Assembly (NCBI GenBank): GCA_021399395.1
Contig: JAAFKJ010000119.1
Span: 1 to 46,028 of the forward strand
DNA from: Candidatus Heimdallarchaeota archaeon
GTDB lineage: Archaea; Asgardarchaeota; Heimdallarchaeia; Heimdallarchaeales; Heimdallarchaeaceae
Reading direction: 5' to 3'
Length of the DNA stretch: 46,028 nt
The position numbers and the translations under genes are program-made. The notes under the pieces are model-generated. The model saw nothing but the letters and a program-made list of their open reading frames with translations, made no database searches and had not been told where the DNA came from. Shown here in pieces: positions 9,556 through 11,928 of the stretch. Numbering within the stretch: position 1 is the stretch's first letter; each line of letters opens with the position of its first letter.

Positions 9556-10413
9556 ATGACAAATATTGACTTTGCTAAGTTAACTGAGTTAGCTTCCTCT
9601 AGATTAGACATTATCGTACTGCACTCACAGAAAGGTGGCCCTGGAAAAACAACTCTATCATGCAACATTGCCCACGAATTAGCCGAAAGAGGAAACAAGA
9701 CTGTTCTTGTTGACTTAGATATAGCTCAACCAACTATCCAACATATTTTCCAAATTCCTGATAAGAAAATCAAACACACAATTAATGATATCCTTCTTGG
9801 AGATGTAAAAGCAAATGAAGATGTTATTCTAGAAACAAAAAATCCAAACCTATTTTTAATTGCAGCTAAAGAGAATGTGGAATATGGTGAAGGCTTACTA
9901 TCGCTACTAGAAGGGATCCAACAATTTTCTTTTTTTGCCTTACATGAAATGACAAAGCTTCTTCTGAGAATGGGTTTTCGATATGTAGTTTATGATTGTG
10001 CTCCAGGATATAGGATGGAATCTGTTAATGCAGCAGCAATAGCTGATGCAAGATTGTTTGTAATTAGGCCTTCAACATTTAGTTTTGAGGGAGCTAAACA
10101 AATGCTCACAGATATCTACAAGAAATTAGATATTAGGTCTCTAAACTTCTTTGTTTTTAATCAAGTTCCCCCAGATCTCAAAGAAGACAATCAGAAACTG
10201 CTCAATGCTTGGAAAGATGATCTAATTAAATTGTATCTCCCTGAAAAAATCGCATTTCTAGATTTTCTCCCTATTTCTTTTGAAATTATGGAACTAGGTA
10301 TAAATGGTGAGTATATTTTTCCAGAGAAAACGGTACTCTATAAGAAATTATCAGAAATAGTTACTGAAATCACAACAAAAATTGATGAGATGAAAGAGAT
10401 TAAAGAAGAATAA
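9556..10413 (+). CDS. MinD/ParA family P-loop ATPase
   Basis: Deviant Walker A KGGPGKTT, VDLD, Walker B YVVYDCAPG, FNQV. Confidence 0.9.
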   Translation: MTNIDFAKLTELASSRLDIIVLHSQKGGPGKTTLSCNIAHELAERGNKTVLVDLDIAQPTIQHIFQIPDKKIKHTINDILLGDVKANEDVILETKNPNLFLIAAKENVEYGEGLLSLLEGIQQFSFFALHEMTKLLLRMGFRYVVYDCAPGYRMESVNAAAIADARLFVIRPSTFSFEGAKQMLTDIYKKLDIRSLNFFVFNQVPPDLKEDNQKLLNAWKDDLIKLYLPEKIAFLDFLPISFEIMELGINGEYIFPEKTVLYKKLSEIVTEITTKIDEMKEIKEE

Positions 10414-10522
10414 TCTTAGAAATCTGTGAAAAACATATCAAATTTTGTTAATTGATTCTGTAATATAGTCATATCAAAAATACAAAGAATCAGTTTGAAT
10501 GAAAACTAAATGTAAAAAATTA

Positions 10523-10537
10523 CAGGGGCTTTTATAC
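10523..10537 (+). promoter_or_regulatory. Candidate BRE/TATA promoter for the intergenic structured RNA
   Basis: Purine-rich CAGGGGC followed by TTTTATA (10530-10536), ~25 nt upstream of the first predicted stem. Confidence 0.45.
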
Positions 10538-10557
10538 TCAAAAATTCTAGAGTAATT

Positions 10558-10885
10558 AGGACTAGGATTTACAACTAAGGCAGCCTATGCGATCACCTCC
10601 AAAGGGACTGTGATCAAGTTGCTTGAAAAATCCTTTCTGCTATACCTAAATAGAACGGGAATAAAGAAGTGTTCCGAAAACACTACTTTTAGTGCGAACG
10701 GGGTAGGAGGGTATGTGATGTACCCATGTAGAGTGTGAGTAGACCCACAAGGAATGACACTTGCATTGGTTCTACTAAATATGTTCAACGATGTTAGATA
10801 TATACTAACATAATAGTAACACATCATATGTTAAAGACTGATCTAAAACTAGCTTAGACTGTTTAATTCCGTTCTAGTTGGGTCT
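10558..10885 (+). ncRNA. Candidate structured non-coding RNA of unassigned class (~325 nt)
   Basis: About ten mutually compatible nested stems, including 10644-10660/10867-10883 and 10688-10699/10769-10779; G-U wobbles form on the + strand; locally higher GC than the flanking intergenic DNA; upstream TATA. Confidence 0.6.
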
Positions 10886-10923
10886 CTGTTCATGGCAATA
10901 TTGGACAAGTTTTTATTCATCAC

Positions 10924-11928
10924 ATGTCTACAGTTGTATTAATGAGCCTAGTTAAAGAGTATCAATGTCCTCATTGTAATGCTCCCATGGACGTAAACCC
11001 TGAAGATGCGATATTTAACTGTAGATCTTGTGGTCAAGCTGTTTTGTCTGATGGTTCAGAATTTAAGGACCATTATGTCTTAAGAAACACTTTGAATAGA
11101 ACAAAAATTCATGAAATCATCAAGGGTTTTATTAAGAAGAAAGGTTTTATGAGGGGAATCAAAGGTTATAAAATAACAAACATAACTCCTACATTAACAC
11201 CTTTTTGGGTAGTTACTTCTGATGCATATACTCACTTTGTGGGATATCTCAGATACACTGAAACGAAAACCAGAACCGTCGGTACTGGAAAAAACAGAAG
11301 AACTGTTACTGACCATGTTACTGTTTATCGTCCTATTGATCAGGAGATAAGAGAGAAAAGAGCGGATGTACTCTTGGGAAGGAGAGGAAGTTCAATTTAT
11401 GGTTATAGTAAAGTAAAAGACATTGTTCGTTCTGAATTCTCAACAGCTGTTCCTTTTGAACATGATCATTTAATAGCAACGGATAAAGAATTTGATTACT
11501 TATCTACTGAGATAACTTTAGATGCTGCTAATCAACTTGGAAAAACAGTTGTTTTTGATAATCACAGAGCTAGAGCGCAAAAAGCTTGTACAAAAGTATT
11601 TGATTGCGCTACACAAATCACCTATTCGGGAACTTACTTTGTTCATGCCCCTGTTTGGCAAGTTGAATATGAATTCAAAGGCGAAACTTACAGAGTTGCT
11701 ATTTTAGGTAGTAGTGGAAGGATAATTCTTGGAGAGATTCCAGTAACAACAACCTTCCGTATGATCTTTTTGACACTAACAGTTCTAGCAATAGGTGCAG
11801 CTGGTGTGGTCAGCTATTTCTTTGGTCAATCTGCAGTATATGTTCCAATTATTGCTGGAATTGTTGCTGCGGTTATAGGATTCTTCACGCTTAAGAATAC
11901 CTTTAAGCCTAAATCGGTGGTGGATTAA
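10924..11928 (+). CDS. Zn-ribbon membrane protein (N-terminal CxxC...CxxC, two C-terminal TM helices)
   Basis: CPHC...CRSC, PFWV, HAPVW...Y...G.SG...GEIP, two hydrophobic helices; true start may be the ATG at 10942. Confidence 0.75.
   Translation: MSTVVLMSLVKEYQCPHCNAPMDVNPEDAIFNCRSCGQAVLSDGSEFKDHYVLRNTLNRTKIHEIIKGFIKKKGFMRGIKGYKITNITPTLTPFWVVTSDAYTHFVGYLRYTETKTRTVGTGKNRRTVTDHVTVYRPIDQEIREKRADVLLGRRGSSIYGYSKVKDIVRSEFSTAVPFEHDHLIATDKEFDYLSTEITLDAANQLGKTVVFDNHRARAQKACTKVFDCATQITYSGTYFVHAPVWQVEYEFKGETYRVAILGSSGRIILGEIPVTTTFRMIFLTLTVLAIGAAGVVSYFFGQSAVYVPIIAGIVAAVIGFFTLKNTFKPKSVVD

What the first reader, a model, noticed from the sequence alone, without database searches (positions are those of the whole stretch)
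10558..10885. Unassigned ~325-nt structured RNA candidate with its own TATA box
Seen: the 510-bp gap between the MinD/ParA gene and the Zn-ribbon genes holds many compatible stems. Domain 1 is a long hairpin: 10564-70/10628-34, 10578-84/10618-24, 10591-96/10610-15. Domain 2 is closed by a 16-bp stem with one mismatch (ACCTAA-A-TAGAACGGGA 10644-60 / TTCCGTTCTA-G-TTGGGT 10867-83). It encloses 10668-73/10679-84, an 11-bp stem 10688-99/10769-79 with two inner hairpins (10709-14/10720-25; 10726-36/10757-66), and 10791-97/10805-11, 10817-21/10829-33, 10842-46/10854-58. G-U wobbles work on the + strand, and TTTTATA lies ~25 nt upstream. Possible tertiary pairings: GGGT 10701/ACCC 10743 and TTCC 10672/GGAA 10751. 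Established: RNase P, SRP and group I/II introns carry conserved motifs that I could not find intact here. Inference: a new or highly divergent Asgard ncRNA, ribozyme or 5' leader of the downstream membrane-protein pair.
Basis: partly seen in the sequence, partly recalled or inferred. Interest (0 to 1): 0.8.

Follow-up and report, generated by a model that had tools for sequence, protein, structure and literature searches.

The report
Gene-less transposon copy carrying guide-RNA scaffold
The "new structured RNA" is a short, protein-less copy of a multi-copy TnpB transposon that keeps the transposon's promoter and its guide-RNA (omega RNA) scaffold, which is a known kind of element rather than a new RNA class.

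Summary
But the region is not a single-copy RNA gene. Window 10449-10827 is one of at least 8 short copies in this genome of a repeat. Its full-length relatives encode a 400-460 aa TnpB nuclease (IS1341-type, TnpB only). The left end with its TATA box and the last ~160 nt are kept. Those 160 nt are a structured scaffold ending exactly at the transposon's right end. Covariation across 59 copies supports the scaffold, and its position matches a TnpB omega RNA. Closest relatives have an empty site at this locus, with the insertion falling just after TTAT. Three other stems are not. The 16-bp closing stem has its 3' arm in unique flank DNA and is near chance level (14 of 300 shuffles). RNase P and SRP RNA lie elsewhere in the genome. 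This is a PATE-like non-autonomous element. Unexplained points are the role of domain 1 and the absence of a recognisable transposase in all 25 genus genomes. No RNA data were available.

The parts
10445..10448 (+). Target motif beside the left end (TAM-like). It reads TTGT here and TTAT at most other copies.
   Evidence: Alignment of 15 left-end junctions in the genome: TTAT 11/15, TTGT 2/15, CTAT 1, ATAT 1. Empty sites in G001 and G017 read TTAT at this point.
10449..10827 (+). Whole non-autonomous (PATE-like, TnpB-less) IS1341-type element.
   Evidence: Both ends are homologous to full-length TnpB elements, where ~1.2 kb separates them. Boundaries come from paralog alignments and from empty orthologous sites.
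10449..10557 (+). Left end, including the conserved promoter region.
   Evidence: Matches the left end of TnpB-encoding copies, window 10454-10545.
10530..10536 (+). TATA box, the element's tnpB promoter. The predicted transcript start is near 10558.
   Evidence: A TTTTATA-like box is conserved in the 15 aligned left ends, about 25 nt before the TnpB start codon in full-length copies. The spacing rule for archaeal promoters is recalled knowledge.
10558..10640 (+). Domain 1: a long hairpin found only in the short copies, standing where tnpB stands in full-length copies.
   Evidence: 11 copies: 85.5% of cells paired, 9/24 pairs with change on both sides, 0/500 shuffles for four of the five measures and 2/500 for the count of pairs with a double change. 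nhmmer finds 8 copies in the genome, none inside a TnpB element.
10641..10665 (+). Poorly conserved linker.
   Evidence: Pairwise identity among the 10 complete short copies is 62.9%, against 95.2% for the scaffold core among 9 of them.
10666..10827 (+). Omega-RNA-type scaffold. Helices: P0 10672-75/10701-04; H1 10680-86/10689-95; H2 10709-14/10720-25; H3 10728-31/10772-75, 10734-40/10759-65, 10744-45/10751-52; H5 10791-97/10805-11. A single-stranded tail runs to the right end.
   Evidence: Covariance model R1 scores 142.9 bits, E 2.9e-35. Across 59 copies, 90.9% of cells are paired and 22/37 pairs carry compensatory change. The unfitted alignment gives 92.8%.
10694..10774 (+). Remnant of the TnpB C-terminal coding region (aa 399-425), broken by a stop codon.
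   Evidence: 78% identity to the C15 TnpB, with 1 TGA inside.
10822..10827 (+). Right-end terminal motif CATCAT. Its last four letters, TCAT, resemble the TTAT target.
   Evidence: Conserved in 17 of 19 aligned copies of both subfamilies, with the flanks diverging immediately after it; C132 ends in CATCAC and the diverged C12 copy carries no such motif.
10828..10847 (+). Predicted guide segment, the flank read-through. Inferred only.
   Evidence: Assigned by position, directly 3' of the scaffold, as in TnpB systems (schematic text in Meers et al.). There are no RNA data. The sequence does not resemble the ancestral target flank seen in G001, G017 and G021.
10828..10889 (.). Unique flank of unresolved origin.
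   Evidence: No homolog was found in 24 genus genomes or elsewhere in the genome.
10890..10923 (+). Proximal promoter segment of the downstream Zn-ribbon gene (TTTTTAT at 10910-16), shared with G021 only.
   Evidence: G021:C37 matches window 10890-11018 at 87%. The segment is absent from the G001 and G017 empty sites.

Best explanation
Window 10449-10827 is a non-autonomous, protein-less derivative (PATE-like) of an IS200/IS605-superfamily element of the TnpB-only (IS1341) type.

Shown:
- It shares both ends with full-length paralogs that encode an apparently intact TnpB.
- It inserted just 3' of a TTAT motif, with no target duplication.
- Its last ~160 nt form a conserved, covarying, + strand-biased structure that ends at the element boundary.
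- Its left end carries the element's conserved TATA box.

Inferred mechanism: the left-end promoter starts an RNA near 10558. That RNA runs through domain 1 and the scaffold into the flank. A TnpB made by one of the full-length copies binds and trims it in trans into an omega RNA whose guide is the ~16-20 nt after 10827. The complex would then cut TTAT-flanked empty sites, so that the element is copied back by repair.

Domain 1 replaces the tnpB frame. I guess it acts as a 5' stabilising or processing module. This step is speculative.

My odds:
- Identity as a TnpB-less IS copy: about 0.95.
- The scaffold is the family's omega RNA: about 0.75.
- This particular old copy is still functional: about 0.3. 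Its TAM is mutated to TTGT, two helices have lost pairs, and the flank differs from the ancestral target.
For: Repeat nature:
- 29 places in the own genome match 10540-10900.
- 22 of 24 other genus genomes match, against 0 of 16 genomes of other families in the order.
- Many copies sit at contig ends.

Two-part matches: window 10454-10545 and 10694-10827 lie ~1.2 kb apart in C15, C131, C189, C63 and C161.

The intervening ORF is TnpB:
- Pfam OrfB_IS605 at 1.5e-9 and Cas12f1-like TNB at 3.5e-11.
- A profile of 8 paralogs hits ISDra2 TnpB structures at 1e-9.
- D188, E337 and D378 are invariant in the 8 intact ORFs. Their role as the RuvC triad is recalled.

Insertion site:
- Window 10694-10774 is a TnpB tail remnant.
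- G001 and G017 have empty sites. G021 has a 28-nt terminal-only remnant at the same site.

Structure:
- Model hit of 142.9 bits.
- 90.9% of cells paired, 191 compensatory cells, 0/500 shuffles, slid controls at most 57%.
- 92.8% paired on the unfitted alignment.
- H2 changes GC to AU through synonymous codon changes in coding copies, 28 GC against 25 AU.
- 230 G-U cells against 50 A-C cells favour the + strand.
- In the 9 ORF-less copies counted, the core is 95.2% identical, against 51-63% for spacers.

Literature: PATEs are protein-less IS605-type derivatives (PMC3119063, passages). PATEs 'often encode omega RNAs' to be used in trans by TnpB (Meers et al. preprint 10.1101/2023.03.14.532601, passages). 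[quoted passage not shown]
Against: No transcript evidence of any kind was available.

Calling the scaffold an omega RNA rests on position, structure and analogy. No Rfam family matched, and I made no direct comparison with a solved omega RNA.

Covariation cannot separate RNA from top-strand ssDNA hairpins. H5 lies 16 nt from the right end, where IS200/IS605 transposases bind a DNA hairpin.

No conserved left-end hairpin was found.

No transposase was identified. Y1 TnpA (PF01797) was found in 0 of 25 genus genomes (72-92% complete). Cas1 was not found in the own genome. The 4 serine recombinases are not adjacent to a tnpB. So the transposition chemistry of the family is unknown.

This copy is old. 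It is shared with G021, whose ParA gene is only 79% identical. It scores second lowest of the 31 complete subfamily-A rows, has a non-consensus TAM, and its flank does not match the ancestral target.

Domain 1 has no detectable relative outside the short copies, so its role is a guess.
Confidence: 0.8

Rival explanations
1. This is an inert relic. The copy is a decaying transposon fossil with no present function, and its apparent structure is inherited from its active ancestors.
For: The insertion is shared with G021, so it is old. The TAM is TTGT instead of TTAT. In the window, P0 and H1 have lost pairs, and the model score is 142.9 bits, second lowest of the 31 complete subfamily-A rows (144-191 bits for 29 of them, 123 for L034). 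At the same site in G021 the core has been deleted. No empty allele was seen in four other samples, so there is nothing to home into.
Against: After that divergence the scaffold still folds into all five helices, and the core is almost unchanged. The short family has near-identical pairs at different loci, 92% and 90%. So short copies have moved or been selected recently.
Confidence: 0.35
2. The conserved hairpins, above all H5 and perhaps domain 1, are single-stranded DNA signals for the transposase rather than RNA structure.
For: IS605-type elements and PATEs have near-terminal palindromes (PMC3119063, passages). H5 lies 16 nt from the right end and covaries strongly. Domain 1 shows only a weak strand bias, 22 G-U against 15 A-C cells.
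Against: No Y1 transposase was found in 25 genomes and no matching left-end hairpin. H1 to H3 lie 50-150 nt inside the element, overlap the tnpB coding end and show a strong G-U bias. That fits an RNA scaffold. The two roles are not exclusive for H5.
Confidence: 0.12
3. The element has been exapted as a promoter or 5' leader for the downstream Zn-ribbon membrane-protein pair.
For: The element landed in the TATA box of the downstream gene, in the same orientation, and carries its own TATA box.
Against: A new proximal TTTTTAT box at 10910-16 lies ~26 nt before the conserved ATG at 10942. It is shared with G021, where the element core is deleted. So the gene does not need the element. Other copies sit beside unrelated genes in both orientations.
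Confidence: 0.08
4. This is a new autonomous ncRNA or ribozyme unrelated to transposition.
For: The fold is good, no Rfam family matches, and domain 1 covaries with no known relative.
Against: The element is multi-copy, with transposon ends, a TnpB tail remnant and empty orthologous sites. Domain 1 never occurs outside these elements in the own genome.
Confidence: 0.03

Closest known systems
PATEs (palindrome-associated transposable elements), the protein-less derivatives of IS605/IS1341-type elements in Haloquadratum and Geobacillus
   Same: Too short to code. The ends are shared with TnpB-encoding elements. There are no inverted terminal repeats and no target duplication, and a short target oligonucleotide sits at the 5' end. 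A piece of the TnpB C-terminal coding region is retained. A terminal-only remnant occurs at the same site in a relative, like the 52-bp core deletions described in PMC3119063. Meers et al. state that PATEs often encode omega RNAs to be used in trans.
   Different: The deleted tnpB is replaced by a conserved, covarying ~80-nt hairpin found only in the short copies. No left-end palindrome was found here. No Y1 transposase was found in the genus. The host is a different archaeal lineage, not named by my tools.
TnpB omega RNA (reRNA) of IS200/IS605 elements such as ISDra2
   Same: A structured scaffold overlaps the 3' end of tnpB and ends at the right end, so that the flank supplies the guide. A 4-nt motif beside the left end (TTAT) is in the position of a TAM. 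The protein profile matches ISDra2 TnpB.
   Different: There is no sequence or Rfam-level similarity of the RNA. The helix plan was derived here and not compared with the solved RNA. Binding, processing and cleavage are untested.
MITEs of DDE transposons
   Same: A short non-autonomous multi-copy derivative that depends on proteins made elsewhere.
   Different: There are no terminal inverted repeats and no target-site duplication. The ends are asymmetric, and the element carries a guide-RNA scaffold.

Membership tests
IS200/IS605 superfamily, IS1341-type (TnpB-only) element | Full-length members encode TnpB (OrfB_IS605 with a RuvC-like domain and a Zn-ribbon/TNB domain). | tested here: met
   Pfam hits. 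PDB profile hit to ISDra2 TnpB at 1e-9. There are 8 intact ORFs of 399-461 aa and 35 TnpB-like places in the genome.
IS200/IS605 superfamily, IS1341-type (TnpB-only) element | Asymmetric ends, no target duplication, and insertion 3' of a short conserved target. | tested here: met
   TTAT at 11/15 left junctions. Seventeen of the 19 aligned copies end in CATCAT; C132 ends in CATCAC and the diverged C12 copy has no such motif. The empty sites in G001 and G017 show a simple insertion after TTAT.
IS200/IS605 superfamily, IS1341-type (TnpB-only) element | Subterminal imperfect palindromes at both ends. | tested here: inconclusive
   A right-end hairpin (H5) is present and covaries. RNAalifold on 15 left ends found only an invariant 4-bp stem.
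IS200/IS605 superfamily, IS1341-type (TnpB-only) element | Mobilised by a Y1 (HUH) TnpA supplied in cis or in trans. | tested here: not met
   PF01797 was found in 0 of 25 genus genomes, while the control rang in 6 of 14 reference genomes. The genomes are 72-92% complete, so absence is not proven. The transposase remains unknown.
PATE (protein-less IS605-type derivative) | Shares termini with a TnpB element but has no coding capacity. | tested here: met
   Length 379 bp. Only a stop-interrupted 27-aa TnpB tail remains. No ORF is conserved among 10 copies.
PATE (protein-less IS605-type derivative) | Multi-copy, at different loci. | tested here: met
   8 copies in the genome and 5 in three other species. 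Flanks are unrelated.
TnpB omega RNA | A conserved structured scaffold overlapping the tnpB 3' end and ending at the right end. | tested here: met
TnpB omega RNA | Transcribed, bound and processed by TnpB, with the guide taken from the flank directing TAM-dependent DNA cleavage. | not testable with these tools
   No RNA run was listed for this organism. This needs RNA-seq or RIP and a cleavage assay.
Archaeal RNase P RNA / SRP RNA | Match to the family covariance model. | tested here: not met
   The window has no hit. The genome's RNase P is at C55:26514-26837 with 165 bits. SRP RNA is at C129:7838-8145 with 95.7 bits.
Group II intron (considered because the conserved core starts with GTGCG) | Match to domain models, with intron-length copies or a reverse transcriptase gene. 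| tested here: not met
   No Rfam hit. The ORF in long copies is TnpB. GTGCG is not conserved; most copies read GTGTG or GGTG.

The most novel reading that the evidence does not exclude
The short elements are not mere deletion products. They are a guide-RNA-only satellite that evolved its own conserved 5' RNA domain (domain 1) to be expressed, stabilised or loaded onto TnpB made by other elements. This happened in an archaeal genus where no known transposase for the family can be found. If so, spread and retention of the whole family may rest on TnpB-guided copying, or on a still undescribed transposase that recognises domain 1 or H5.
Probability: 0.15. Interest if true: 0.6.

Novelty: new member of a known kind. 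Interest (0 to 1): 0.3.

Why it matters
For the scan, a high-interest "new ribozyme" candidate resolves into an ordinary class of mobile DNA. The repeat also explains many contig breaks in this assembly.

For TnpB/OMEGA biology it offers a clean natural set. There are about 60 copies in three scaffold variants, from 19 genomes of one archaeal genus. They show covariation in an omega-type scaffold, including compensatory synonymous changes inside tnpB. There is also a protein-less subfamily in which the scaffold core stays about 95% identical without any coding constraint.

Two open points could interest specialists:
- The conserved hairpin that replaces tnpB in the short copies.
- The lack of any Y1 transposase, and of Cas1 in the own genome, despite clear past mobility.

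The locus also shows a transposon landing in a TATA box, followed by the appearance of a new proximal promoter.

Tried and rejected
RNase P and SRP. Both were found elsewhere in the genome and are rejected for this locus.

Rfam. The gathering scan of the whole window gave 0 hits. Permissive scans of 10380-10960 and of the C171 copy gave only chance-level hits, E at least 0.07.

Group II intron. I considered this because the core starts with GTGCG. I rejected it for three reasons: no model hit, the long copies encode TnpB, and the motif is not conserved.

tRNA or tmRNA. None.

Small protein. The 80-aa - strand ORF at 10585-10827 and the 42-aa + strand ORF are not conserved in 10 copies.

Long-range closing stem. 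It is at chance level (14/300; 8/100). Of the eight other short copies, seven gave 10 to 77 of 100 shuffles. Only C136 shows a strong element-to-flank helix.

GGGT/ACCC pairs in 128/131 cells of subfamily A, but the partner is mostly missing in the other 25 copies. TTCC/GGAA pairs in 93/128 and 10/24 cells. The nested alternative P0 (ATCC/GGGT) fits 217/224 cells in all subfamilies. All of these are invariant, so covariation cannot decide.

Searches for relatives and for a transposase:
- A short-query search for domain 1 in the genus missed even known own-genome copies, so I treat it as a sensitivity failure. nhmmer on the genome worked.
- A single-sequence PDB search found nothing. The profile search did.
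- No left-end hairpin was found.
- Cas1 (Asgard-type TnpB partner, PMC10691335, passages): none in the own genome.
- Serine recombinases: 4 found, none adjacent to a tnpB.

Expression. No RNA holder is listed for this stretch, so nothing can be said about transcription.

Contigs of four DNA runs. Contigs cross the left junction in X3, X4, X5 and X6, and the right junction in X5. No contig joins across the element, so no empty allele was seen. Parts without cover carry no meaning.

The origin of 10828-10889 was not resolved.

No earlier findings were seen.

Supplementary files of the cited papers were not opened. Tables S6 to S9 of PMC3119063 and the extended data of Meers et al. may hold PATE and omega RNA details relevant to how similar this element is.

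Full report
WHAT IS THERE. The 510-nt gap lies between a ParA/MinD-like gene (9556-10413) and two Zn-ribbon membrane-protein genes. TTTTATA lies at 10530-10536. The + strand of 10558-10885 folds to -87.4 kcal/mol, z -3.15, with 0 of 100 shuffles as good. The - strand gives z -2.51. Rfam gave no match over the whole window and only chance-level hits in a permissive scan. The same genome has an archaeal RNase P RNA (C55, 165 bits) and an SRP RNA (C129, 95.7 bits). The candidate is therefore neither.

IT IS A REPEAT.
- BLAST of 10540-10900 found 29 places in the own genome.
- It found matches in 22 of 24 other genomes of the genus, and in 0 of 16 genomes from other families of the order.
- Many copies touch contig ends, as expected for a repeat that breaks assemblies.
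- With a wider query the matches split in two. Window 10454-10545 and window 10694-10827 are adjacent here but lie ~1.2 kb apart in C15, C131, C189, C63 and C161.

The DNA between the two parts is a 435-461 aa ORF. It carries Pfam OrfB_IS605 and the Cas12f1-like TNB domain. A profile of eight paralogs matches the solved ISDra2 TnpB at E 1e-9 over most of its length. An Asp, a Glu and an Asp are invariant in the eight intact ORFs. Their assignment as the RuvC triad is recalled. The genome holds 35 TnpB-like places. Window 10694-10774 is itself a 27-aa TnpB tail remnant with a stop codon.

BOUNDARIES AND INSERTION.
- Right ends: in an alignment of 19 right ends, 17 end in CATCAT and the flanks diverge directly after it (C132 ends in CATCAC; the diverged C12 copy has no such motif). 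In the window that is 10822-10827.
- Left ends: an alignment of 15 left ends shows conservation starting after a TTAT motif (11/15 TTAT, 2/15 TTGT including the window, 1 CTAT, 1 ATAT). The left end of the window copy is 10449.
- Empty sites: the orthologous locus in the two closest relatives with the downstream gene (G001 and G017; protein 90% and 87% identical) is empty. The ParA stop and the Zn-ribbon start are ~65 nt apart there. The point matching 10448/10449 lies just after TTAT, inside the TATA box of the downstream gene.
- G021 has a 28-nt fusion of left-end start and right-end tail at the same point, followed by the ancestral target flank. It also shares with the window a new segment bearing a TTTTTAT box before the gene (window 10890-10921).

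So the insertion is old and shared by two species, and in one of them the core has since been lost. Window 10828-10889 has no detectable relative and its origin is unresolved.

THE SHORT FAMILY.
- The window copy belongs to a subfamily of ~380-bp copies that lack tnpB.
- There are 8 in the own genome: C23, C171, C136, C132, C179, C148 (cut by a contig end), C54 and C174.
- There are 5 more in G021, G006 and G013.
- Domain 1 is absent from full-length copies and from the rest of the genome.
- No ORF is conserved among 10 copies.
- Most pairs of copies are 68-84% identical. C171 against the G013 copy is 92%, and C54 against C174 is 90%, with unrelated flanks. The family therefore moved, or was exchanged, fairly recently.

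STRUCTURE OF THE 3' PART. I collected 48 distinct copies of the right-end region. RNAalifold plus inspection gave a consensus. I turned it into a covariance model (R1) and searched 62 sources. That gave 59 hits, with the window at 142.9 bits, E 2.9e-35.
- On the model-fitted alignment, 90.9% of 2051 cells pair. 22 of 37 pairs show changes on both sides (191 cells). 0 of 500 shuffles reach any measure. Slid registers pair at 57% at most.
- On the unfitted MAFFT alignment of 31 subfamily-A copies, the same structure pairs in 92.8% of cells, with 59 compensatory cells. Three of the five measures are reached by 0 of 500 shuffles, further pair types by 1 of 500 and the count of pairs with a double change by 74 of 500. 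Relatedness inflates such shuffle counts, so I give most weight to the slid controls and the per-pair tables.
- In window coordinates the helices are P0 10672-75/10701-04, H1 10680-86/10689-95, H2 10709-14/10720-25, H3 10728-31/10772-75 with 10734-40/10759-65 and 10744-45/10751-52, and H5 10791-97/10805-11. A single-stranded tail follows to 10827.
- H2 switches between G-C (28 copies) and A-U (25 copies). In coding copies this happens through synonymous changes in two codons of the TnpB tail.
- G-U cells outnumber A-C cells 230 to 50, so the sense strand is the structured one.
- In the 9 ORF-less copies counted, the core and H2 are 95.2% identical pairwise, while spacers and linker are 51-63%. 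This conservation cannot be due to coding.

- Domain 1 is confirmed. On 11 short copies the three stems plus a 4-bp tip pair in 85.5% of cells. 9 of 24 pairs are compensatory. Slid registers pair at 47% at most.
Both are confirmed.
- The stems 10668-73/10679-84, 10688-99/10769-79 and 10726-36/10757-66 pair in only 62.6% of cells, indistinguishable from shuffles. The family uses other registers, namely H1 and H3.
- The 16-bp closing stem is real in this copy. A helix of that size or larger occurs in 14 of 300 shuffles. It joins the variable linker to unique flank. Among eight other short copies only C136 has a strong element-to-flank helix. I treat it as chance.
- The proposed tertiary pairs are compatible with subfamily A only, and they compete with the universally possible P0.

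HOW IT MOST LIKELY WORKS.
- By position and anatomy, the 160-nt structure is the family's omega RNA scaffold. It overlaps the tnpB 3' end, it ends at the transposon boundary, and a 4-nt motif beside the left end lies where a TAM lies.
- The preprint of Meers et al. describes exactly this layout. [quoted passage not shown]
- Dyall-Smith et al. defined PATEs as derivatives of IS605/IS1341-type elements, including terminal-only remnants (passages).
- Nety et al. showed that TnpB trims its own mRNA into the omega RNA (abstract).
- The homing role of TnpB is taken from the abstract of 10.1101/2023.11.20.567912 (search listing).
- In full-length copies the TATA box lies ~25 nt before the TnpB start codon. 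By recalled archaeal promoter spacing, that implies a leaderless mRNA.
- In the short copies the same promoter would start the RNA at the first base of domain 1.

So I propose a sequence of events. A promoter-driven RNA runs domain 1, linker, scaffold and flank. A paralogous TnpB loads and trims it in trans. The 16-20 nt after 10827 serve as guide. All steps after 'the DNA has this anatomy' are inferred.

CAVEATS.
- No RNA run was listed.
- Contigs from four other samples carry the element at this locus and show no empty allele.
- The transposase is unknown. PF01797 was found in 0 of 25 genus genomes. No Cas1 was found in the own genome, although Asgard-type Cas1-TnpB transposons are described in PMC10691335 (passages). 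The four serine recombinases are not next to tnpB.
- No left-end hairpin was detected.
- H5 could serve as a DNA hairpin as well.
- This copy has a non-consensus TAM, weakened P0 and H1, and a flank unlike the ancestral target. It may be a fossil.
I can only say the genome has archaeal-type RNase P and SRP RNAs.

VERDICT. The finding is a real feature. It is a member of a known kind: a PATE-like, TnpB-less IS element carrying an omega-type scaffold. It is not a new RNA class. The residual novelty lies in the conserved domain 1 hairpin and the missing transposase.

Noticed in passing
whole genus (G000-G024): Dozens of TnpB elements per genome, but PF01797 (Y1 TnpA) was found in 0 of 25 genomes. 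No Cas1 was found in G000. The four serine recombinases in G000 (C195, C28, C86, C20) are not adjacent to a tnpB. The transposase that moves this family is unidentified.
   Followed up: partly
L094 (G021:C37), about original positions 185-215, orthologous to window 10445-10830: A 28-nt terminal-only remnant (left-end start fused to right-end tail) sits at the same insertion point as the window's element. The ancestral target flank follows it. The TAM there is also mutated (CTGT).
   Followed up: yes
window 10910-10944: The downstream Zn-ribbon gene probably starts at the ATG at 10942, not at 10924. Orthologs align from residue 4-7 onward, and their genes begin at the corresponding ATG. A TTTTTAT box at 10910-16 lies ~26 nt upstream. 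This proximal promoter segment is absent from G001 and G017, whose TATA box is the one the element interrupted.
   Followed up: partly
G000 C136:53790-54120 (locus L024): This short copy has a 20-pair/1-mismatch helix between the 3' half of its domain 1 and its own flank, 48-68 nt after the right end (0 of 100 flank shuffles). The window has a 16-pair helix to flank positions 53-69. The other seven copies show nothing comparable. This is unexplained and may be chance.
   Followed up: partly
G000 C171:20478-20832 vs L006 (G013:C40); G000 C54:30000-30330 vs C174:82700-83050: Two pairs of short copies are 92% and 90% identical, with unrelated flanks. That is well above the 68-84% of other pairs and above the divergence of orthologous genes between these species. 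It hints at recent mobility or exchange.
   Followed up: no
G000 C145:1124-2338, C154:1531-2751, C17:4023-5228, C95:3551-4756: A second TnpB clade, ~40% identical to the first, has intact 399-402 aa ORFs and a different C-terminal tail. Model R1 found no scaffold hit in these loci, so they must use another RNA.
   Followed up: no
A1/A3 alignments (for example L011, L012, L013, L049, L051, L052; and L056-L062): There are three scaffold variants. Subfamily A has a long H3. One variant has H3 shortened by ~13 nt. Subfamily B has a different H3 sequence. All share P0, H1, H2, H5 and the CATCAT end.
   Followed up: partly
window 10169-10255 (ParA/MinD-like gene): Contigs from runs X3 and X4 show a joint skipping 85 nt inside the gene. 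Only 23 letters lie on the shorter side and depth is low, so it may come from another organism or be an assembly artefact.
   Followed up: no
G000 C129:7838-8145: The genome's SRP RNA scores 95.7 bits, just under Rfam's gathering score of 96.5. A gathering-threshold annotation would miss it.
   Followed up: no
window 10460-10476 and all left ends: The left end carries a conserved tandem direct repeat (two GTCATAT-like units) instead of an obvious palindrome. Its role is unknown.
   Followed up: no
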